From an uncultured Gammaproteobacteria bacterium (GTDB lineage Bacteria; Patescibacteriota; Patescibacteriia; Magasanikbacterales; GCA-002688135): a DNA stretch of 39,320 nt. Of this stretch, positions 6,847-32,413 are shown piece by piece. Under the pieces are notes generated by a model, which did not search any database, had not been told where the DNA came from, and worked only from the letters and a program-made list of their open reading frames with translations. A program made the translations under genes and the position numbers. The stretch spans positions 1-39,320 of the forward strand of contig CAZHXK010000002.1 in the NCBI GenBank assembly GCA_964536565.1, in the 5' to 3' direction. The stretch's first letter is position 1. Every line of letters starts with the position of its first letter.

Positions 6847-8757
6847 CTAGTCTCCGCAGGCCGCGTTGTCCTGAGGATCGAGGGCACAATAGCCGCCGTC
6901 CTCATCGCAGTCAGGAGTACCGTTTCCGTCGTAGTCGCCACCACAGAGGATGCAACCAGATGCCGGACCGAAACACACGAAGGCATTAGCCGTAAAGAAC
7001 GGGTCAGGTACCGGACGTGGGTCCATGAAGATGTCGTATGCAACCTCGACTCCTTCAAAGAAGAAGCGAAGCTTACCACATTGATCCGACAGAACCGCAC
7101 CACTCGTATCGCCGTCGACGAAGAGCAGATCATTTCCGTCCAAACCATCGAGATCGAACTCGATGTTGAAGCGGTGTAGACCAGCAAGGCCGCCAGACGT
7201 CGAGGAGTATACCGTATCAGTCGAAAGACCGAGGCCGGGATTCAGCGGCTTGTATGATGGGAACGAGACACTTTCGAAGTCATCGTGCACCACCGGGCCA
7301 CCAAACGAACATGCGCCAGTCGACTTGAAGGTCACCAACACACTACCAGAAACCGTCGGGTTACATTCGAGCTCGTCTTGCAGCCCGTTGCAATTGTCGT
7401 CGGTTGCGTTACCGCACCACTCCGGCTGAGCCGGATTGATGTTTGCATTGGAATCGTCACAGTCTGCGCCTTTGGCACAGCCTTCGCCGAAGCCGTCGTT
7501 ATCCTCGTCAGTGCAAGGAACCACACAATCCTCGTCTGCTTCCCCGTCACAGTTGTTGTCGGCTTCATCGAAGCAGACCTCAGTAACTGGAACGGTTTCA
7601 CCAAGACAGTCAGTCAGCTCGCCGAGCGCACAGACTTGCACACCATCGCCGCACGTACCCACACCAGACGTACCATCGGCACCGGTATAGCATGCAACTT
7701 GAAGTGCCTTGCCGTCGTCCCCTTCGTCAGCGACCGCATCGCAGTCATTGTCTTTGGAGTCGCAGGTCTCAGCCGCAGGGACCGTCTCGCCTACACAGCT
7801 TCCAAACGCACCATCAGCGCAGGTTTGCGTACCACCAGTACACTCACCCACATCTTCAGTTCCGTCTGGGCCGTTATAGCAATCTTGAGTCAATGCATCG
7901 CCGGCATCATCCTCATCGGATGCGCCGTCACAGTCATTGTCGAGTGAGTCACATGTCTCAGGCGACGGATCGCCAGGAGTCACACTACACACCTCACCGT
8001 TTTGCTCAGCGTTGCAGACAACCGTACCCGTGTTCTCGCACTCGCCAGTTCCGACCGTACAACCCGTTCCCAGGTTCGCAAAGTCTTCATCAGCAGCCCC
8101 GTCACAGTCATTGTCGTCACCGTCACATACGTCAGAGCTCGGCACAACTTCGCCATTGCAACTTCCGAATGCAGCGTCAGAACACGTCTGCGTTCCGCCA
8201 ACACACTCGCCTACGTCCTGAGTACCATCGGCACCATTGTAGCAGTCTTGCGTGAGCGGCTGACCAGCCTGATCTTCGTCGACCAGACCTTCGCAGCTGT
8301 TATCGAGACCGTCACAGACCTCCGGAGAGATCTTGAGAAGCGCCTCGAATTCGCAGTCGCTCGGAGAGCCACCAACACAGTTCTCAACCGTCGTCAGGCA
8401 CTCGCCCACACCACACGTGGTCTGGCCGAGTCCTTCATCTACTGCGTTATCGCAGTTGTTGTCCGCGCCATCGCACACTTCGTCACTCGGCGTGACCTCA
8501 CCTTCGCAGTCGGTGTACACACCGCCAACACAGGCTTGAACGCCGAACTTGCACGCACCGACACCAGCAGTGCCAGCCTCGCCAGTGTAACACTGGACAG
8601 ACGCACCATTTTCGTCGCACGCAGTGCCTGGCTCACCAGGCTCGAGAGCGCCTAAGGATTGCCCCAGCGCATTGCTGGGCAATGCGCCCGGCTCAATGTC
8701 TTGAGCACATCCGACGATGAGCACGCTTACTGCCAAAAGAAAAACCAGATATCGCAT
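6847..8757 (-). CDS. Cys/Asp-rich repeat lipoprotein (MopE-like putative metal-binding CDGxDNDCDGxxDE repeats)
   Basis: 636-aa ORF with a lipobox-type signal (MRYLVFLLAVSVLIVGC) and GGGAGG 6 nt upstream of the ATG. About 6 copies of a unit CY.G.DGT..VG.C..G.Q.C..G.F..C.GE..P..E.CD..DN.CD...DE are present. It is visibly GC-richer with GC-ending codons compared with its neighbours. Confidence 0.85.
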   Translation of the reverse strand: MRYLVFLLAVSVLIVGCAQDIEPGALPSNALGQSLGALEPGEPGTACDENGASVQCYTGEAGTAGVGACKFGVQACVGGVYTDCEGEVTPSDEVCDGADNNCDNAVDEGLGQTTCGVGECLTTVENCVGGSPSDCEFEALLKISPEVCDGLDNSCEGLVDEDQAGQPLTQDCYNGADGTQDVGECVGGTQTCSDAAFGSCNGEVVPSSDVCDGDDNDCDGAADEDFANLGTGCTVGTGECENTGTVVCNAEQNGEVCSVTPGDPSPETCDSLDNDCDGASDEDDAGDALTQDCYNGPDGTEDVGECTGGTQTCADGAFGSCVGETVPAAETCDSKDNDCDAVADEGDDGKALQVACYTGADGTSGVGTCGDGVQVCALGELTDCLGETVPVTEVCFDEADNNCDGEADEDCVVPCTDEDNDGFGEGCAKGADCDDSNANINPAQPEWCGNATDDNCNGLQDELECNPTVSGSVLVTFKSTGACSFGGPVVHDDFESVSFPSYKPLNPGLGLSTDTVYSSTSGGLAGLHRFNIEFDLDGLDGNDLLFVDGDTSGAVLSDQCGKLRFFFEGVEVAYDIFMDPRPVPDPFFTANAFVCFGPASGCILCGGDYDGNGTPDCDEDGGYCALDPQDNAACGD

Positions 8758-8861
8758 TGTTGCCTCCCAAATTTAGGCTTTTTCTGAACTGAGAACCGGA
8801 ATGTGTCGTTAAAGATTATTGTCAAAGTGCTTCACTCCCGTCTTATCGGAGTGAATGCAAC

Positions 8862-8890
8862 AGTTAATCATATGTGTCATATATTGTCAA
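8862..8890 (-). promoter_or_regulatory. candidate promoter of the Cys-rich lipoprotein gene
   Basis: On the minus strand, TTGACA (8890..8885), a 17-nt spacer, then TTAACT (8867..8862). This leaves a roughly 100-nt leader containing an 8-bp hairpin (TTCACTCC / GGAGTGAA). Confidence 0.35.
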
Positions 8891-8923
8891 TAGCATTTAC
8901 ACGACAAAAAATGCACTTAATTT

Positions 8924-8951
8924 ACAAAAAAATCCCCGACTTTGCGGGGAT
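8924..8951 (-). terminator. intrinsic terminator of purA
   Basis: A 7-bp stem ATCCCCG/CGGGGAT (8932-8938 / 8945-8951) followed by a T7 run on the minus strand, directly after the purA stop. Confidence 0.75.
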
Positions 8952-8957
8952 CAGTTA

Positions 8958-10274
<1,317 letters not shown>

Positions 10275-10384: not shown

Positions 10385-10840
10385 TTATTTTTTTGGAAAA
10401 TAGATGTATGCAGCCCATGAAACAATCAGCGCTATCCAGTACTGTGTGTGTTCCCACAATTCAACACGGTCACCAAAAATTTGATCGCCGATTGAGAAGA
10501 AACTGAAAATGACGAGCCCAACGAGCGTCCCCCAAAAAAACCACGCATGCGCTTTTTCATTTTTCTTTTTAAGAAGGAAATATAACGCACCAGCACATAA
10601 CACAAATGCTATGAGTTCGGCGACGGTTGTTTTTACAAATACTGCGTGTGGAATCCGTGGATCGTCGACACCAATCGATGCAAAGTAATCCATAAACTGC
10701 GCAAGTCGGTTTCTTCCTGCCCAGATATACGTCGGTTCTGTTATGAGTTTGTCGATGAAGTTGAGGAACCAGAATAGTGTCCAGTACAGGACGACACCGA
10801 TCTGAATGATTCTGCCCTCTATTTGTTTTGTGTGTTTCAT
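10385..10840 (-). CDS. hypothetical integral membrane protein (about 4 TM helices)
   Basis: 151-aa ORF with four hydrophobic segments. I recognised no diagnostic motif. Confidence 0.65.
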   Translation of the reverse strand: MKHTKQIEGRIIQIGVVLYWTLFWFLNFIDKLITEPTYIWAGRNRLAQFMDYFASIGVDDPRIPHAVFVKTTVAELIAFVLCAGALYFLLKKKNEKAHAWFFWGTLVGLVIFSFFSIGDQIFGDRVELWEHTQYWIALIVSWAAYIYFPKK

Positions 10841-10860
10841 ATGTGCGTATTATAACATGT

Positions 10861-11568
10861 CTATATCCGAACATCAGCATGCATGACATGCGGACTGAAT
10901 ATATCCCGAGCAAATTCTGTCAGCTTTGCATCCTTGTATGTCGTCAAAGTGCCATACGCCGGGTCGAGTGTTTTTCCTGGACGAAATGCTTGTAGGTACA
11001 GATTCTGAGCACCCTCTACTTCTCTGGCCATTTTCTTCATGATCTCCGGAGTGTGAATTTCCTTGATAACCGTCGTTCTGAATTCATGATCTACTCCTGA
11101 GTTTACGATCGTTCTAATTGAGGATCGAATTTTTTCTGGTTGCACGCACCGACCACTTACCCCTTGGTATTTTTCTGGAATGTGCTTGAGGTCCATCGCA
11201 ATATAGTCAACGAGTTGCTGTTCGATGACTTGTTCAAGTATTTCAGGACGCGCACCATTTGAGTCCAGTTTTATTTTAAGGCCTTCGTCACGGATTTTTT
11301 TCATGAACGTAAGAAGATCGCCTTGAATCGTAGGCTCTCCCCCTGTAATGACAACTCCCTCTAGCATTCCCTTTCGGGCCCGAAGAAACCTAAGCACAGC
11401 ACCTTCCGGAATAAAGCTATCCTTTATTTTGAGAATTTCTTCAGGCAACACAAATTCTGGATTGTGACACATGCCACAACGGAAATTACACCCCGGCGTG
11501 AACACGATACACGCCGGGGTGTCTGGGAAATCGATCAGAGATATTTTCTGGATTCCTGATATGAGCAT
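10861..11568 (-). CDS. nrdG: anaerobic ribonucleoside-triphosphate reductase activating protein (radical SAM)
   Basis: 235 aa with the CNFRCGMCHNPE (CxxxCxxC) cluster motif near the N-terminus and GGEPT. It lies adjacent to nrdD, and its start overlaps the preceding stop (TAATG). Confidence 0.9.
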   Translation of the reverse strand: MLISGIQKISLIDFPDTPACIVFTPGCNFRCGMCHNPEFVLPEEILKIKDSFIPEGAVLRFLRARKGMLEGVVITGGEPTIQGDLLTFMKKIRDEGLKIKLDSNGARPEILEQVIEQQLVDYIAMDLKHIPEKYQGVSGRCVQPEKIRSSIRTIVNSGVDHEFRTTVIKEIHTPEIMKKMAREVEGAQNLYLQAFRPGKTLDPAYGTLTTYKDAKLTEFARDIFSPHVMHADVRI

Positions 11569-19958: not shown

Positions 19959-20110
19959 AGTGGTGGAGTTATGTTTGTATTTTAATTTTTTGGCAATTTT
20001 AAGATAAGGATTGATGATTGGTCGATGTTAATTATTTTTATATCTGGATTCTATTACTCCGTTTCACTGTGCTTCAGAATGACGAGTTGTTAGCTGGCTC
20101 GCAGATCGGC

Positions 20111-20150
20111 GGGATCCTTCGACTACGTTCCGCTGTCGCTCAGGATGACA
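20111..20150. repeat. family-A palindromic repeat unit (reverse orientation)
   Basis: GGGATCCTTCGACTACGTTCCGCTGTCGCTCAGGATGACA. The same GATCCTTCGA...CGCTCAGGATGACA unit occurs at 32376-32413, and its reverse complement at 28866-28900 and 32329-32363. It sits between the lexA stop and the polymerase gene. Confidence 0.8.
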
Positions 20151-20155
20151 GGATG

Positions 20156-20737
20156 CTAATGGTATTTGCGAATGACGGCAGTGACGACACCTGCTACTTG
20201 GAGTTCTTCTTTAGGTACGATGGTTGGATAGTTTTTGTTAGCTGGTTTGAGTACTGTTTTTCCTCCGACTTTTTCAAAGTATTTCATGGTCCATTCATGG
20301 TCTACTTCTGCAACAATGATATCTCCTACGCGTGGCTGCTTACCTCGTTCGAGGAGTACGAGATCGTCTGGTTGAATTCCAGCCTCTATCATTGAGTCTC
20401 CCGAGACCTTGAGTAAGAAACTTGCAACATGATTTGTTATAAGGAAGTCATCGAGACTCATAATGTCACAGAGCTCTTCTTCAGCTGCTGAGGGAAACCC
20501 AGCCTGTACAGTTCCGATGAGTCGCGGACCACCCTTGATCCCTCGTGGTATCAATCTCCCTGCGCCATCTTTTTCTACCAGGCCATGTTCGATCATTTTA
20601 TCCACGATGCGTGCAACTGCTTGCTTTGACTTGAGCGCAAACAGTTCGCACATTTCAGAGTAACTCGGTAGTCGCTCATGTTCTTTTAAAAATATTCTGA
20701 GTTGTTCAATTCTTTTTTGAAATGTTTCTTTTGACAT
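20156..20737 (-). CDS. lexA: LexA repressor (wHTH + S24 self-cleaving peptidase)
   Basis: The ORF is 20156..20824 (GTG). I prefer the ATG at 20737 because the promoter and operator lie inside the 5' extension. It has the Ala-Gly cleavage site (VQAGFPS), Ser (GDSM) and Lys (WTMKYF) of the LexA/UmuD family, and an N-terminal HTH (SYSEMCELFALKSKQAVARIVDKM). Confidence 0.9.
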   Translation of the reverse strand: MSKETFQKRIEQLRIFLKEHERLPSYSEMCELFALKSKQAVARIVDKMIEHGLVEKDGAGRLIPRGIKGGPRLIGTVQAGFPSAAEEELCDIMSLDDFLITNHVASFLLKVSGDSMIEAGIQPDDLVLLERGKQPRVGDIIVAEVDHEWTMKYFEKVGGKTVLKPANKNYPTIVPKEELQVAGVVTAVIRKYH

Positions 20738-20802
20738 AGAAGGTTGAGCTGCGCGAGAGTCACTACCATCTCCGGCGCAGCTCGTTACTTTGTTATGATT
20801 AT

Positions 20803-20831
20803 ATTGTAGTGAACGATCGTTCACATGTCAA
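20803..20831 (-). promoter_or_regulatory. lexA promoter with embedded LexA operator (SOS box)
   Basis: On the minus strand, TTGACA (20831..20826), a 17-nt spacer, then TACAAT (20808..20803). The spacer is filled by the perfect 16-bp palindrome GTGAACGATCGTTCAC (20809-20824). This matches the GAAC-N4-GTTC Cheo-box type consensus. Confidence 0.75.
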
Positions 20832-20840
20832 TGTGGATAA

Positions 20841-20868
20841 ATATAAAACCGACGACCGTAGTCATCGG
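20841..20868 (-). terminator. second (tandem) minus-strand intrinsic terminator upstream of the lexA promoter
   Basis: On the minus strand, CCGAUGAC-UACG-GUCGUCGG is an 8-bp stem with one G.U pair that would be a C.A mismatch on the plus strand. It is followed by UUUUAUAUUU. Confidence 0.55.
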
Positions 20869-20901
20869 CTACCTGCGATCATCTCTCCGAGAAAGCCATG
20901 T

Positions 20902-20938
20902 AAAAAAAGAGCCGGCAGAGCTCCGTAGAGATACCGGC
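20902..20938 (-). terminator. minus-strand intrinsic terminator ending the candidate 0.4-kb RNA
   Basis: GCCGG...CCGGC outer stem (20911-20915 / 20934-20938) plus an inner CTC-CGTA-GAG stem-loop. It is followed on the minus strand by TCTTTTTTT. Confidence 0.6.
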
Positions 20939-21285
20939 AAGAGAAAAGACGGGCAAGTTATGTAGCAACGAGTAAAGTCGGCTATTAGCAGACAGTCTTT
21001 TAGGATGGTAAAGGTAACGTTACAACTTCGGCCCATCTAAGATGGAAGTGTGGATAAGTTGATGTCAGATGGAATATTAAGTCCTAGATAACCATCAAAC
21101 TTCGACCCACACAATGATTAGGTTAGAGGTGCCCACAGACGAATCCGTGGACACCCCCCTTTTATGGTGATAACCGTACGCCTTCGGCTCACAACGACAC
21201 ACACGTGTCGAGACGAGCAAGGAAATGGAACACGGAAGGTTGATGACCATAGGGCCATCAGTTGGTTCAGACGCCCATTCGGACG
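20905..21285 (-). ncRNA. candidate structured RNA of unknown class (about 0.4 kb)
   Basis: There is no credible ORF. The region is dense in hairpins, three of which contain G.U pairs only when read on the minus strand (21133-21150 with a UUCG loop; 21241-21260; 20849-20868). A perfect TATAAT lies at 21297..21292 (no good -35), and terminators lie at the 3' end. The 5' end is uncertain. Confidence 0.4.
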
Positions 21286-21403
21286 TCTGAAATTATAGAG
21301 GCGGCTTCAATACACTTTTTTACCATCTCTTAGCCACATACAAGCACATCTTGCATATTCCCTTTATATTTGACTAAATTTACCCAGAGAGCACACTCAG
21401 GGG

Positions 21404-21432
21404 TTGACAAGATCCTTTTTTTGTGCTAGTAT
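21404..21432 (+). promoter_or_regulatory. near-consensus sigma70 promoter driving the large candidate RNA
   Basis: TTGACA (21404-21409), a 17-nt spacer ending in TGC (extended -10 TGn), then TAGTAT (21427-21432). No protein-coding gene lies downstream for about 1 kb. Confidence 0.6.
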
Positions 21433-21438
21433 GAAATC

Positions 21439-22362
21439 ATCGTACCTGAGCGCGCCGAGTCTTTCACTAGCTCGCCAGGGACGCACAAGAGAAGTTGATT
21501 AGGCCCCCGCACATCACCCTGAAAAATGGGCCGCGGGAAAAAATTTGATCTTCGCTATTCAAAGAGGAGATAGTCATGAGGGGCTTCGACCCCGCATACT
21601 TTCTAGCGGATCGTGTGGCCGCTCGTTCGTTCCACACAACATGACGCCGGTCATGAGAGCAGCACTTATAGAATGAGACAGATGGTGCTGTTTGTAAGTT
21701 ATGAAGTGGAGCCTTGACGGGCAGAGAAACTTCCAAATGCCATAATGGGGATCCGGTGTTCTCCATTTCAACTATGATCGAAAAATAGAGCGAACGAAGT
21801 TCCCCTCGCATTCGATTGCGTCGGAGCAGGAGTCGCAGGCATGAGCCAAAGGATAGATGACTAGAGCTGCGTTAGTCGCGCAATCCGATGATGTCATTTT
21901 GCAAAGTAAGCACATCATCACAATGATCCCCGAGTGGTTCGTTGTAACAGATCGCTCTATATGTTTTAAAGGCGTGGCTGGAGAGGGCCGTGCACCAGAT
22001 CAGTTATAATCCTCTCAGAGTCTATAAGTGAGTTTGACTCGCTCCTGGCCATGGGTTTGGCTGGACGTAATAAAAACCCGAGCAGGTCACCCATACCTGC
22101 CAAAAGTTCCACGCAAGGACAAAAGGAGTACATGAATTGCGCTGACCACGCACTGTGATTCCCTGATTCACGGCACCGGTCAACCTATGGCGAAGCATTC
22201 TACCGACAACAGACATAGAAAACAAAATACCGATCACCAGAGGTAGCATTACCCAATCCCACGTGCAGTTTACTGCCAGAGAGCTGAGGGTATGCAAAAA
22301 AGCGCCCGCGATGGCGTACTGACGTAAACATCGTTGACGAGGACTCTACGGAGTCCTTTTCT
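21439..22362 (+). ncRNA. candidate large structured RNA of unknown class (about 0.9 kb)
   Basis: It is bracketed by the promoter at 21404-21432 and the terminator at 22340-22366. It has only short, non-protein-like ORFs and is visibly GC-richer than flanking genes. Many perfect 5-8 bp hairpins are present (21641-21656, 21889-21921, 22084-22102). Two helices have G.U pairs valid only on the plus strand (21658-21692, 21745-21766). Confidence 0.5.
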
Positions 22363-22366
22363 ATTT
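22340..22366 (+). terminator. plus-strand intrinsic terminator at the end of the large candidate RNA
   Basis: AGGACTC-TACG-GAGTCCT is a perfect 7-bp stem, followed by TTTTCTATTT. Confidence 0.6.
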
Positions 22367-22431
22367 GCCAAGATTTTTTAGACCCACGTATCCGATTGTC
22401 AGACCTGACTGCACATCAAGTTTTTAATATC

Positions 22432-22460
22432 AAAAAATCGCGATGTTCTCGCGATTTTTA
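22432..22460. terminator. bidirectional intrinsic terminator (end of the S41 protease gene)
   Basis: ATCGCGA-TGTTC-TCGCGAT is a 7-bp stem flanked by A6 on the left and T5 on the right. It overlaps the protease stop codon. Confidence 0.7.
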
Positions 22461-23705
22461 TAACTGTTCTCTGAGGAGTTCTTTTCCTCTTTCTAATACA
22501 GTATCAATCGTCAGATCCTCCCCCTGCTCAACAACTACATCCGGCTCAATTCCCTCTCCATTAATTCCCCTGTTATTTGGCGTGAACCATTCAGCTATCG
22601 TAATTTTTACCGCGGATCCATCAGAAAGTTGTTCTAAATCCTGTACTGATCCTTTTCCGAATGTTGTTGTTCCGATAATTGTTGCTGCTTCGTAATCTTG
22701 CAATGCTCCAGCGACAATCTCTGATCCAGATGCAGAGCCACCATTCACAAGCACGATCGTTGGCATTCCTTCCAAGCGCAACTTCCCTTCTCTCATGTAG
22801 TTTTCTATTGAACCATCTGAGAATCGCTCTATCACAACCGGGCCTGCGGGAATCCATTCTGATGCCATTTGTACTGCGGTTGTGAGGAATCCTCCTGGAT
22901 TATTTCTTAAATCAAGCACAACAGCTTTTGCACCAGCTGCGTGTGCATCACGAACTGCTTCGCCGAATAACTGCATTGTGTCACCTCCGAATTGTGCAAC
23001 CTTGATGACAGCTATGTCATCATCAATTTCCCACTGAACACTTTTGAGTACGATTTCTCCTCGTGTGATTGGCGTATCCTGAACCTCAGTAAATCCTTCT
23101 CTGAAAATTCCGAGTGTTACAATTGTTCCTTTTTTACCTCTGATCAAATCAACAGCCTCTTCAACGGACATCGTCAAAGATTCAACACCATCGATCGTAA
23201 CAATATGATCGCCCGCCTGAACCCCAGCGCGCTCTGCTGGTGTGTCTGGCAGTGGAGCTAGAATAACGAGACGCTTATCGCGTATACCAATCTCAGCACC
23301 AATCCCGAAGAATTTTCCAGACAGGTCACTTGTGAATCGCTCCGCTGTTTTTGGTCGGAGGAATGTAGAGTATGGATCATCGAGTGCACCCACGAGCCCT
23401 TCCAGTGATCCATAAAATAAATCGTCGTCATCCACTGGCTTATCTACAAATCGATCCTGAATAATTGACCATACCTCCCAATACAGTTTTGTGTCGACAT
23501 CATCATTCAGTAGGCCTTCTGCGGGAGTAATCAACGCTGGTGCTGCAGCTTGAACATTGTTAAGGCAACATTCTTTGCCTAGTACAGTCCGCTCAACCAC
23601 AACCCCTCCTGCAAACGCCGCAAGAGCTACGAATACTAAAACGTACCCAACAAAAAAACGCTTTATTGGGCGTGTCTTTTTTCTAGTTGTCCGTTTTTTT
23701 GGCAT
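22458..23705 (-). CDS. S41 family C-terminal processing peptidase (PDZ + tail-specific protease domain)
   Basis: The ORF is 22458..23741 (TTG). I prefer the ATG at 23705 (MPKKRTTRKKTRPIKRFFVGYVLVFVALAAF, a membrane anchor). It has a PDZ domain (GVQAGDHIVTIDG), the catalytic Ser motif NGGSASGSEI and the Lys motif TFGKGSVQ. Confidence 0.9.
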   Translation of the reverse strand: MPKKRTTRKKTRPIKRFFVGYVLVFVALAAFAGGVVVERTVLGKECCLNNVQAAAPALITPAEGLLNDDVDTKLYWEVWSIIQDRFVDKPVDDDDLFYGSLEGLVGALDDPYSTFLRPKTAERFTSDLSGKFFGIGAEIGIRDKRLVILAPLPDTPAERAGVQAGDHIVTIDGVESLTMSVEEAVDLIRGKKGTIVTLGIFREGFTEVQDTPITRGEIVLKSVQWEIDDDIAVIKVAQFGGDTMQLFGEAVRDAHAAGAKAVVLDLRNNPGGFLTTAVQMASEWIPAGPVVIERFSDGSIENYMREGKLRLEGMPTIVLVNGGSASGSEIVAGALQDYEAATIIGTTTFGKGSVQDLEQLSDGSAVKITIAEWFTPNNRGINGEGIEPDVVVEQGEDLTIDTVLERGKELLREQL

Positions 23706-28508: not shown

Positions 28509-28853
28509 TTAAAACGCGGGATATTCTTTTCTCTCTGTTTCCATTTTATCTAATTGAACATAGACTTTTCCATCTTCTTCCCATATTTTGTATGAGCCTT
28601 GTGATTCTTTTCCAAAACCCTGTCCTGTTTTGAAATGGAATTCCCAGTAGTGCCATGGACATACAATCTTGTCTCCCTTCATCCAACCATCACATAACGG
28701 GCCGTCCTTATGTACACACTTTGAAGTGATGCACCCCAGCTCTCCATCTTTTCGAAAGACAGCACAGTCTTCGAAACCAACAACCACTTTCTTTCCTTTT
28801 CCCTCTGGAAAATCTTCTGAGTTTCCAATGCATTCAATATTTTTATCTGACAT
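28509..28853 (-). CDS. small Rieske [2Fe-2S] domain protein (NirD-like)
   Basis: Rieske motifs CVHKDGPLC...CPWHYWEF (CxH-x17-CxxH). The ORF begins at 28871, but that ATG lies inside a repeat copy, so the ATG at 28853 (MSDKNIE) is preferred. Confidence 0.85.
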   Translation of the reverse strand: MSDKNIECIGNSEDFPEGKGKKVVVGFEDCAVFRKDGELGCITSKCVHKDGPLCDGWMKGDKIVCPWHYWEFHFKTGQGFGKESQGSYKIWEEDGKVYVQLDKMETERKEYPAF

Positions 28854-28865
28854 AATTTCTAGAAA

Positions 28866-28900
28866 TGTCATCCTGAGCGTTTTAGTCGAAGGATCCCGTT
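28866..28900. repeat. family-A palindromic repeat unit (forward), followed by a degenerate inverted partner up to about 28945
   Basis: TGTCATCCTGAGCGTTTTAGTCGAAGGATCCCGTT is identical over 35 nt to 32329-32363. The downstream CTCCGCTGCGCTTCGGATGTTACG resembles the reverse unit. Confidence 0.85.
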
Positions 28901-29063
28901 GGTCTACTGCCGAGTTCTTTCTCCGCTGCGCTTCGGATGTTACGCCGCTTCGGGCGATTTTTAATACTCCGCTCTGCCGTGCAGAGCTGCGGCACTTATA
29001 GTAACGGAAAAGAATGCTATCGCATTCGTTTTCCTAACTTGCTCAGAGCTTTCATGCCAATCT

Positions 29064-32282: not shown

Positions 32283-32328
32283 ATGATTAGTGTGTAGGAA
32301 TTAGAGCGTAGAGTGTAGTTTCTTTTAA

Positions 32329-32413
32329 TGTCATCCTGAGCGTTTTAGTCGAAGGATCCCGTTAATATTCCGACGAGATCCTTCGACTCTGCTGCGCGCC
32401 GCTCAGGATGACA
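32329..32413. repeat. composite inverted repeat of two family-A units (MITE/REP-like, 85 bp)
   Basis: The left arm 32329-32363 (TGTCATCCTGAGCG...TCGAAGGATCCCGTT) and right arm 32376-32413 (GAGATCCTTCGA...CGCTCAGGATGACA) are in inverted orientation. The right arm supplies the last codons (LSS*) of the 32403..33338 gene. Confidence 0.85.

What the first reader, a model, noticed from the sequence alone, without database searches (positions are those of the whole stretch)
21404..22366. Promoter-to-terminator 0.9-kb noncoding unit: candidate large structured RNA of unknown class
In a window where genes are separated by 0-150 nt, about 1 kb has no credible ORF.
- **Transcription signals:** It begins with the best promoter in the window (TTGACA, a 17-nt spacer with TGn, then TAGTAT at 21404-21432). 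It ends with a clean hairpin plus T-tract (22340-22366).
- **Structure:** The interval is visibly GC-richer than surrounding AT-leaning genes and is packed with perfect short hairpins. Examples are CATGAC-GCCG-GTCATG (21641-21656), GATGATGT...ACATCATC (21889-21921), GCAGGT-CACCCAT-ACCTGC (22084-22102), GGGTTT...AAACCC and GGGG-CTTCGA-CCCC.
- **Strand:** Two 7-8 bp helices (21658-21692 and 21745-21766) contain G.U pairs that would be A.C mismatches on the other strand. This agrees with the plus-strand promoter and terminator.
- **Classification:** Its size and ornate hairpin density recall the giant bacterial RNAs (GOLLD, ROOL, OLE classes). I cannot match it to any family from memory, and it has no RNase P, tmRNA, SRP, rRNA or group II hallmarks.
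Basis: partly seen in the sequence, partly recalled or inferred. Interest (0 to 1): 0.85.

Follow-up and report, generated by a model that had tools for sequence, protein, structure and literature searches.

The report
New large structured RNA in Parcubacteria
The 0.93-kb gene-free stretch is a real non-coding RNA gene with its own promoter and terminator, found so far only in one small clade of marine Parcubacteria, matching no catalogued RNA family and of unknown function.

Summary
Window 21404-22366 (+) is a sigma-70-type promoter, about 930 nt without a conserved ORF, and an intrinsic terminator.

The same unit lies next to ctpA in three other Parcubacteria lineages (L001, L002, L015), which gives three deep lineages in all. 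In each, the promoter, the 5' end (UCAUCGUAYCUGAGCRCG) and a terminator 860-930 nt downstream are kept, although ctpA synonymous sites are saturated.

It is not coding. Indels are mostly 1 nt, substitutions show no 3-base periodicity, and there is no conserved ORF or Pfam hit.

It is structured. Five 5'-domain helices are 97.5% paired across the four sequences, and 10 of 30 pairs change on both sides. A roughly 100-nt cloverleaf-like four-way-junction module occurs once or twice per RNA. A covariance model built without the window finds the window's copy on the + strand (E about 1e-7).

Rfam 15 gives nothing for the window or the homologs.

Caveats: only four distinct sequences are known. The 3' half does not align between deep lineages. 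The window's MFE z-score is only -1.8. Sister lineages lack the RNA. Expression and function are untested.

Verdict: a credible new large ncRNA family, probably a scaffold or decoy RNA.

The parts
21374..21383 (+). Near-palindrome CTAAATTTAC just upstream of the -35. It is the perfect palindrome CTAAATTTAG in L001, L002 and L015. Possibly a regulator site or UP-like element.
   Evidence: Alignment A1. Function is inferred.
21404..21432 (+). Sigma-70-type promoter: TTGACA, 17-nt spacer with extended -10 TG, then TAGTAT.
   Evidence: The same promoter (10/12 plus TG) is present in L001, L015 and L002. It lies in the only blastn-detectable conserved stretch of the gap.
21437..21454 (+). Conserved 5' end of the RNA, UCAUCGUACCUGAGCGCG. 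The transcription start is inferred at about 21438-21440.
   Evidence: Conserved as UCAUCGUAYCUGAGCRCG in all four sequences. The start site is inferred from the -10 position.
21563..21593 (+). Purine-rich SD-like stretch, then AUG (21576-21578), then hairpin P3 (GGGGCU 21580-21585 / GACCCC 21588-21593).
   Evidence: The motif is conserved in all four. The ORF after the AUG is MRSP* in three lineages and 22 codons in the window, so the ORF is not conserved. P3 has a G-C to A-U compensatory change.
21613..21637 (+). Hairpin P4, GUGUGG/CCACAC, followed by the conserved single strand ACAAC.
   Evidence: Invariant in sequence, with one U.G in L002. It therefore says nothing about covariation.
21640..21655 (+). 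Hairpin P5, CAUGAC-GCCG-GUCAUG.
   Evidence: L015 has CAUAAU/AUUAUG, two both-side changes. L002 has two mismatches.
21657..21693 (+). Hairpin P6 (GAGCAGCA/UGCUGUUU) with a conserved loop motif of the UGAAAGAUUGAG type.
   Evidence: 32 of 32 cells are canonical in the four sequences, at least 5 of 8 pairs change on both sides, and the window has two G.U pairs.
21790..21836 (+). Hairpin domain P8, closed by GCGA/UCGC, with inner helices that differ in sequence between lineages.
21855..21969 (+). Cloverleaf-like four-way-junction module M1. Closing helix Pm: AGAGC 21863-21867 / GCUCU 21954-21958. H-a: 21869-21872 / 21878-21881. H-b: GAUGAUGU 21887-21894 / ACAUCAUC 21912-21919. H-c: ACAAUG 21920-25 / CGUUGU 21940-45.
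   Evidence: Covariance model R1 was built from five copies in L001, L002 and L015 only, and it finds this site: 36.9 bits, E 2e-7 to 1e-6 (default filters; 5e-9 on the 1.7-kb stretch with filters off), against 6.0 bits on the - strand. Over six copies, 97% of cells are paired and 9 of 23 pairs change on both sides.
21970..22338 (+). Fast-evolving 3' region. It cannot be aligned to L015, L001 or L002, and no second module is detected in the window.
   Evidence: In L001/L002 the equivalent region is 76-92% identical in 50-nt windows (outside a 49-nt insertion) and holds a second module.
22339..22366 (+). Intrinsic terminator, GAGGACUC-UACG-GAGUCCUU followed by UUCUAUUU.
   Evidence: It is homologous to the L015 terminator, with the same loop and tail. 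L001/L002 have a different hairpin plus U-run at the same place.

Best explanation
Window 21438-22366 (+) is an independently transcribed, non-coding, structured RNA gene of about 0.93 kb. It belongs to a small, previously uncatalogued family confined, as far as the data go, to one clade of marine Parcubacteria (CPR/Patescibacteria).

Shown:
- The promoter, 5' end and terminator are conserved in position in three deep lineages.
- The sequence evolves as non-coding DNA but under constraint.
- The 5' domain of about 400 nt is a series of hairpins whose stems covary.
- It is followed by one or two copies of a roughly 100-nt four-way-junction ('cloverleaf-like') module. The module's junction strands and one arm (GGGCUAUCYGAUGAUCU ... 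AUCAUCAC ... GUAAMRGAGACGUGCU) are conserved in sequence.

Inferred:
- The RNA is made at a high level from the near-consensus extended -10 promoter.
- It acts in trans as a folded RNA rather than by simple antisense pairing.
- The sequence-conserved, sometimes duplicated module is a binding platform for a protein partner, or for another copy of the RNA. That would make it a scaffold or decoy in the way OLE, 6S or CsrB-type RNAs work.
- The poorly conserved 3' half serves as spacer or stabiliser.
- The gene arose by insertion into the ctpA-lexA spacer, a local hot spot, in the ancestor of this clade.

The confidence of 0.7 is for 'bona fide functional structured ncRNA gene'. The specific scaffold/decoy mechanism alone would get about 0.3.
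For: Synteny and signals:
- The unit lies beside ctpA in L001, L002 and L015.
- The promoter is the same in all four.
- Each has a terminator 860-930 nt downstream.

Constraint:
- L001 and L002 are 83.6% identical in the RNA, against 65% at ctpA third codon positions.
- Between the deep lineages third positions are about 47% identical, i.e. saturated, yet blocks of 9-18 nt in the RNA stay identical.
- Each lineage's RNA is 99.9-100% identical across independent samples.

Non-coding:
- 11 of 19 indels are 1 nt.
- Substitutions by codon phase are 41/51/45.
- The longest stop-free runs are not conserved, and reading UGA or UAG as sense opens no conserved ORF.
- There is no shared small ORF.
- Ten stop-free translations give no Pfam hit.

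Structure:
- Helices P3-P8 are canonical in 117 of 120 cells, with 10 of 30 pairs changed on both sides. Slid controls give 22-45% and 0-4 pairs.
- Five module copies are 96.4% paired. Six copies are 97% paired with 9 of 23 both-side changes, a level reached by 0 of 500 shuffles. Slid controls give at most 42%.
- The window's module was found by a model that had not seen it.

Strand:
- 36.9 bits on + against 6.0 on -.
- G.U pairs occur in P3 and P6.

Not a known family: Rfam 15 gives no hit, ARAGORN finds none, and literature searches are empty.
Against: - There are only four distinct sequences, in three deep lineages. No phylogeny-aware covariation test such as R-scape was run.
- Some 3' partner positions were chosen by maximising pairing, and alignment A10 is fitted to the model.
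- The window's MFE z-score is only -1.8, and MFE does not tell the strands apart.
- The 3' 370 nt or so does not align between deep lineages, and the window lacks a detectable second module.
- The RNA is absent from the next relatives. L014 (LexA 74%) has other content in the slot, and in L032-L034 (LexA 67%) ctpA and lexA are only 218 nt apart. The RNA is therefore young and dispensable for the wider group.
- There are no expression data.
- No partner protein has been identified, so the scaffold/decoy mechanism is an inference from architecture only.
Confidence: 0.7

Rival explanations
1. A decoy for the translation machinery, or a 'start-stop' mini-ORF element. On this reading the conserved SD-like stretch plus AUG, and the other SD-like hexamers, bind 30S subunits or an SD-binding factor, and the RNA works by titration.
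For: AAGGAG/GAGGAG followed 6-7 nt later by AUG is conserved in all four sequences. SD-like hexamers are enriched on the + strand: 3, 3, 6 and 7 observed against about 1 expected, and 0-1 on the - strand.
Against: The ORF after the AUG is not conserved: 4 codons in three lineages, 22 in the window. The hairpin that overlaps it covaries instead. In L001/L002 at least one SD-like strand is predicted to pair with a downstream CUCC as part of a long stem, so the purine runs may simply be helix strands. Enrichment is weak in the window and L015 (z of 2.3 and 1.6).
Confidence: 0.1
2. A transcribed but functionless filler, or a decaying remnant of an inserted element in a recombination hot spot. On this reading the similarity between loci reflects shared ancestry, and the hairpins are incidental.
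For: The ctpA-lexA spacer is variable. It holds a MopE-like gene in L001, L002 and L015, an unrelated structured 0.5-kb piece in the window, and ORF211 in L014. In L032 nothing is inserted: the spacer is only 218 nt. The 3' half diverges fast. The window's MFE z-score is unremarkable.
Against: Synonymous sites of the flanking gene are saturated between lineages, while the promoter, the 5' end and several internal blocks are identical. Stems change by compensatory substitutions. L001/L002 identity in the RNA far exceeds their third-position identity along the whole length. No repeats or mobile-element genes flank it.
Confidence: 0.1
3. A cis-acting element for the neighbours. For example, a convergent transcription unit that insulates or modulates the 3' end of ctpA, or a long untranslated extension of the upstream MopE-like gene's transcript.
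For: The RNA always converges on ctpA, with the two terminators 0-90 nt apart. In three lineages it follows a MopE-like gene on the same strand.
Against: It has its own strong promoter, preceded by the upstream gene's terminator(s), and its own terminator before ctpA. The window lineage lacks the upstream MopE-like gene but keeps the RNA. Conserved internal helices and modules are not needed for mere transcriptional interference.
Confidence: 0.07
4. A protein-coding gene, a pseudogene, or a set of small ORFs missed by ORF calling, for example through recoding.
For: Stop-free runs of up to 134 codons exist on the - strand of the window. A 114-aa ORF lies at 21467-21811 (-).
Against: These runs are not conserved in the homologs. 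Indels between L001 and L002 are mostly 1-2 nt and substitutions show no codon periodicity. Reading UGA or UAG as sense does not open a conserved frame. There are no Pfam hits. Among 1.84 billion protein representatives there were only two weak hits, both to unrelated repetitive proteins. No gene was called there in L015 or L020.
Confidence: 0.03

Closest known systems
OLE RNA (about 610 nt, Firmicutes). Background from my own knowledge and PMC3413148, PMC12286853.
   Same: A large, stand-alone, structured bacterial ncRNA of unknown biochemical role. It has its own transcription signals, is probably abundant, and is thought to work as a folded RNA or RNP rather than by antisense pairing.
   Different: There is no sequence or structure match (Rfam). 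The host phylum is different. No oapA-like partner gene lies next to it. The distribution is far narrower. Only part of the RNA is conserved.
ROOL and GOLLD RNAs (about 580 and 800 nt; homo-oligomeric RNA assemblies, PMC12286853; discovery of ROOL in PMC5737381)
   Same: Size class. Multi-domain architecture that includes multi-way junctions. No associated ORF.
   Different: No Rfam match. The context is neither phage nor tRNA-rich: the window has no tRNA and no phage genes. Oligomerisation is untested. Self-complementary stretches were seen only in passing (GGGGCGCCCC in L001/L002).
Multivalent decoy RNAs such as CsrB/RsmY (own knowledge)
   Same: A protein-binding unit repeated within one RNA would resemble the one or two sequence-conserved modules seen here.
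   Different: GGA motifs are not enriched. The repeat unit here is a 100-nt four-way junction, not a short hairpin loop. There are at most two copies.
tRNA-like cloverleaf elements (own knowledge)
   Same: The module has a closing stem plus three arms.
   Different: ARAGORN does not call it. Arm lengths, the 11-nt 3' junction strand and the absence of a T-loop do not fit a tRNA.

Membership tests
GOLLD / ROOL / OLE / HEARO / raiA and the other large RNA families held in Rfam 15 | A match to the family's covariance model at or near its gathering score | tested here: not met
   cmscan of the whole window at gathering threshold gave 0 hits. Window 20300-22900 at E up to 10 gave only an Rp_sR47 match inside ctpA and rimP-like terminator matches. 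The homologs L001, L002, L015 and L027 gave nothing in the RNA region.
OLE RNA | Genomic association with the oapA (OLE-associated protein) gene; Firmicutes host | tested here: not met
   The neighbours are lexA, dinB-like, ctpA, NUDIX and an EPSP-synthase-family gene. The relatives are Parcubacteria MAGs.
ROOL / GOLLD | Frequent prophage or tRNA-rich context | tested here: not met
   There are no tRNAs in the 39-kb window or in L001, L002 and L015. The flanking genes are cellular housekeeping genes.
ROOL / GOLLD / OLE | Homo-oligomeric quaternary assembly | not testable with these tools
   Needs cryo-EM, native gels or mass photometry.
RNase P RNA, tmRNA, SRP RNA, 6S RNA, group I/II introns | Rfam model match. 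For tmRNA also a tag-peptide ORF plus a tRNA-like end | tested here: not met
   (no hits). ARAGORN found no tmRNA.
CsrB-type protein sponge | Many GGA motifs, well above expectation, presented in hairpin loops | tested here: not met
   GGA counts are 15-20 per RNA against 16-18 expected (z from -0.6 to +0.6).
Generic 'structured ncRNA gene' (the class I file it under) | Own promoter and terminator conserved in homologs | tested here: met
Generic 'structured ncRNA gene' | Non-coding pattern of evolution under constraint | tested here: met
Generic 'structured ncRNA gene' | Helices supported by compensatory changes above controls | tested here: met
   This rests on only 4-6 sequences and has no phylogeny-aware statistic.
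Generic 'structured ncRNA gene' | Detected as a discrete transcript of the predicted strand and size | not testable with these tools

The most novel reading that the evidence does not exclude
This is the founding member of an undescribed class of large (about 0.9 kb) structured RNAs specific to CPR/Patescibacteria. Its conserved, duplicated four-way-junction module would give it a biochemical role of its own, such as a multivalent RNP scaffold or a self-assembling RNA in the manner of OLE, ROOL or GOLLD. On this reading it is more than a lineage-specific regulatory transcript.
Probability: 0.3. Interest if true: 0.8.

Novelty: new member of a known kind. Interest (0 to 1): 0.65.

Why it matters
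Large structured non-coding RNAs over 500 nt are rare in bacteria. The few known classes (OLE, GOLLD, ROOL and others) have each revealed unexpected biology or RNA architecture.

I found none reported for the Candidate Phyla Radiation, whose small genomes leave little room for non-essential sequence. A 0.9-kb RNA gene kept under constraint there is therefore worth explaining.

The family gives a concrete, testable object:
- defined ends;
- a defined strand;
- a set of covarying helices;
- a compact module of about 100 nt suited to probing, pull-down or structure determination.

If the RNA turns out to be only a young, clade-specific transcript, it still documents how a new RNA gene, with internal duplication of a structural module, arises in an intergenic hot spot.

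Tried and rejected
Searches for more homologs:
- The metagenome scan with TANNNTNNNNTCATCGTAYCTGAGCRCG returned only L019, which is 99.9% identical to L001. That scan also missed JGI contigs that do contain the pattern (L028, L029). Absence from that collection is therefore weak evidence.
- The viral scan with the module 17-mer gave five chance hits with no nhmmer support.
- Neighbour-protein routes (CtpA, MopE-like, LexA, and cluster members) gave only re-samplings of the same four RNAs, or contigs that end before the RNA (L031), or lineages that lack it (L014, L026, L032-35).
- I tried the 'spurious ORF' trick, searching the 134-aa antisense translation against 1.84 billion proteins. It gave two unrelated repeat proteins.
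- The R1 hit in L004 (E = 1) lies in what reads as a coding region running off the contig end, so I rejected it.

Structures rejected:
- RNAalifold's long-range helix between the 5' GAGCRCG and CGUGCUY is not supported in the window. It also competes with the module's closing helix Pm, which covaries.
- The L001/L002-only pairing GCAUGA/UCAUGC is contradicted by L015, where the local hairpin P5 covaries instead.
- A partner for the invariant 5' end could not be fixed. Candidates are GAUGA, AUGAU and UACG upstream of GAGCGA.

Identities rejected:
- pseudogene or recoded gene;
- CsrA-type sponge;
- tRNA-like element;
- SOS regulation: I saw no GAAC-N4-GTTC box in the RNA promoter, whereas the lexA promoter has one.

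Full report
**What is there**

The interval is as described.
- A sigma-70-type promoter lies at 21404-21432 (+): TTGACA, a 17-nt spacer with TG, then TAGTAT.
- A hairpin plus T-tract lies at 22339-22366 (+).
- Nothing longer than a 114-aa antisense ORF lies between them.

The promoter is one of the best in the window but not the best. The gene-free gap is wider than stated. It runs from lexA (ending about 20737) to ctpA (starting at 22458), about 1.7 kb. In the 100% identical public contig L020, no gene was called in it. GC is 0.498 against about 0.44 nearby. All the named hairpins exist, 1-3 nt from the coordinates given.

By folding energy alone the interval is not remarkable. The + strand z-score is -1.8 to -1.9 and the - strand -1.0 to -1.1.

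**Whose genome, and what relatives have**

The flanking genes place the window in Parcubacteria/Patescibacteria. The order ctpA ... lexA-dinB is conserved.

Four lineages carry a homologous unit on the strand that converges on ctpA:
- the window (identical to L020);
- L001 (also L036; L019 is 99.9% identical);
- L002 (also L027-L030 and L038);
- L015 (also L016).

These rest.

All four share:
- the promoter, at 10/12 plus TG;
- the 5' end UCAUCGUAYCUGAGCRCG;
- a terminator 860-930 nt downstream.

The window, L015 and L001+L002 are three deep lineages. CtpA is 75-77% identical between them and third codon positions are about 47% identical, i.e. saturated. L001 and L002 are close, with CtpA 92% identical and third positions 65% identical.

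More distant relatives lack the unit:
- L014 (CtpA 67%) has an unrelated 211-aa ORF plus a GC-rich piece of about 250 nt.
- L026 has a tRNA after its MopE-like gene.
- In L032-L034, ctpA and lexA are 218 nt apart.

The RNA therefore looks like an insertion into a variable spacer in the ancestor of one small clade. In L001, L002 and L015 a 500-530-aa MopE-motif protein gene lies between the RNA promoter and lexA. The window has a different 0.5-kb piece there.

**Not coding**

Between L001 and L002 the RNA is 83.6% identical in aligned columns. Of 19 indels, 11 are 1 nt and two are 2 nt. Substitutions fall 41/51/45 by phase. Stop-free runs differ between homologs, and reading UGA or UAG as sense does not help.

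The SD-like AUG at 21576 opens MRSP-stop in three lineages and 22 codons in the window. No other small ORF is shared. The ten longest stop-free translations have no Pfam hit. The 134-aa antisense translation finds nothing relevant among 1.84 billion proteins.

Constraint extends along the whole L001/L002 alignment. Outside one 49-nt insertion, most 50-nt windows are 74-94% identical.

**Structured**

*5' domain.* Anchored on the invariant blocks, five hairpins can be placed in all four sequences.
- P3: window GGGGCU/GACCCC against GGAGUC/GACUCC in the others.
- P4: GUGUGG/CCACAC, invariant.
- P5: CAUGAC/GUCAUG against CAUAAU/AUUAUG in L015.
- P6: window 21657-21664 / 21686-21693. Its stems are GAGCAGCA, AGGCAUCA, GGAUGAUU and GGAUGACU, each with a matching partner and a conserved loop.
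- P8: closed by GCGA/UCGC.

Together, 117 of 120 cells are canonical and 10 of 30 pairs change on both sides. Sliding the partner by 1-3 nt gives 22-45% paired and 0-4 such pairs. One caveat applies: three of the partner positions were chosen by best pairing.

*Module.* A module of about 100 nt follows the 5' domain. It consists of:
- closing helix Pm;
- arm H-a;
- arm H-b (GAUGAUCU/AGAUCAUC);
- arm H-c, which varies in sequence;
- an 11-nt junction strand (GUAAAAGAGACGU).

It occurs twice in L001 and twice in L002. It occurs once clearly in L015, which may have a weak second copy. On the five copies outside the window, 96.4% of cells pair and 6 of 23 pairs change on both sides.

A covariance model built from those five copies (R1) finds window 21855-21969 on the + strand at 36.9 bits, E about 1e-6 to 2e-7. 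The - strand scores 6.0 bits. The window's copy keeps all four helices through different sequences: Pm AGAGC/GCUCU and H-c ACAAUG/CGUUGU.

Over six copies, 97% of cells pair and 9 of 23 pairs change on both sides, a level reached by 0 of 500 shuffles. Slid controls reach at most 42%. That alignment is fitted to the model.

*3' region.* The 3' 370 nt or so of the window cannot be aligned to the other deep lineages except at the terminator shared with L015. In L001/L002 the 3' half is conserved and predicted to be structured.

**Not a known family**

Rfam 15 gives no hit at gathering score for the window or any homolog. Nothing in the RNA appears at E up to 10. ARAGORN finds no tRNA or tmRNA. 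GGA motifs are not enriched. Full-text searches for structured or large ncRNAs in Parcubacteria, Patescibacteria or CPR found nothing relevant. The known large RNAs are described in PMC12286853 and PMC5737381.

**How it most likely works**

Shown: it is a conserved, non-coding, structured unit on the + strand with its own signals.

Inferred:
- It is transcribed strongly.
- It acts in trans as a folded RNA.
- The module is a binding platform for a protein or for another RNA copy, which would make the RNA a scaffold or decoy.

The module's junction strands and the H-b arm are conserved in sequence even though stems elsewhere covary freely. The module is also duplicated in some lineages.

I put about 0.7 on 'bona fide functional structured ncRNA gene' and much less, about 0.3, on the specific scaffold mechanism.

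Rivals:
- an SD/AUG decoy, since SD-like hexamers are enriched on the + strand, although at least one is predicted to be a helix strand;
- a functionless remnant in a hot spot;
- a cis-acting convergent unit for ctpA;
- hidden coding.

**Limits**

- There are four distinct sequences only.
- The public scans I could run are incomplete: the metagenome scan missed JGI contigs that do hold the pattern.
- No expression data are available.
- No phylogeny-aware covariation statistic was run.

**Verdict**

This is a credible new family of large structured ncRNA, narrow in distribution and of unknown function.

Noticed in passing
window 20830-21403 (mainly 20900-21300), minus strand: A second ORF-free piece, directly upstream of the RNA promoter, folds far better than chance on the minus strand: z = -7.2 for 20830-21403 and -6.2 for 20900-21300, against -3.2 on the + strand. 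It forms a row of long, near-perfect hairpins. It ends at minus-strand terminators at 20924-20908 and 20870-20847. There is no Rfam hit and no homolog in any fetched locus except the identical L020. It occupies the slot where relatives carry a MopE-like gene. It could be another ncRNA gene or a relic of an element.
   Followed up: partly
window about 20809-20823; L014 about 11420-11435; L032 7900-7970: Cheo-type LexA boxes (GAAC-N4-GTTC, e.g. GAACGATCGTTC) overlap the lexA promoter at 20831-20803. L032 has two such boxes. I saw no such box in the RNA promoter.
   Followed up: no
window 28853-28929 and 32316-32392: A 77-nt direct repeat (81% identical) containing GTCATCCTGAGCG...CGAAGGATC lies in two intergenic spots. 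A related fragment is at 20107-20133. It looks like a small dispersed repeat element.
   Followed up: no
L015 3560-3980 (minus strand): Three tandem units of about 120 nt, each ending in a terminator-like hairpin (GAGGCCTCCC...GGGAGG plus a T-run), lie between the MopE-like gene and the RNA promoter.
   Followed up: no
L014 10270-10600 (minus strand) and 10601-11236: In the lineage that lacks the RNA, the same slot holds a 211-aa ORF with no Pfam hit, followed by a GC-rich piece of about 250 nt with hairpins and its own terminator. There is no Rfam hit and no similarity to the RNA.
   Followed up: partly
window 21374-21383; L001, L002 and L015 at the equivalent site: The 10-bp palindrome CTAAATTTAG (one mismatch in the window) is conserved just upstream of the -35 of the RNA promoter. 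It follows the T-run of the upstream terminator and may be a regulator site.
   Followed up: no
window 22635-22757 (+), inside ctpA; also L001, L002 and L015: A sub-threshold Rfam match to Rickettsia sRNA47 (41 bits; gathering score 60) recurs inside the conserved part of the ctpA coding sequence in all loci. It most likely reflects protein-coding conservation captured by that model.
   Followed up: no
L001 about 8345-8354 and L002 at the equivalent site (3' tail of the RNA): The self-complementary 10-mer GGGGCGCCCC is conserved in the 3' tail of the L001 and L002 RNAs. It could form a hairpin or an intermolecular duplex. It is not present in the window.
   Followed up: no
window 6847-8757 (minus strand) and 7000-10000: A 636-aa ORF with internal repeats of about 39-52 nt and high GC (0.55-0.58) shows tblastn similarity to the N-terminal MopE-motif region of the MopE-like genes that lie next to the RNA in the other lineages.
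   Followed up: no
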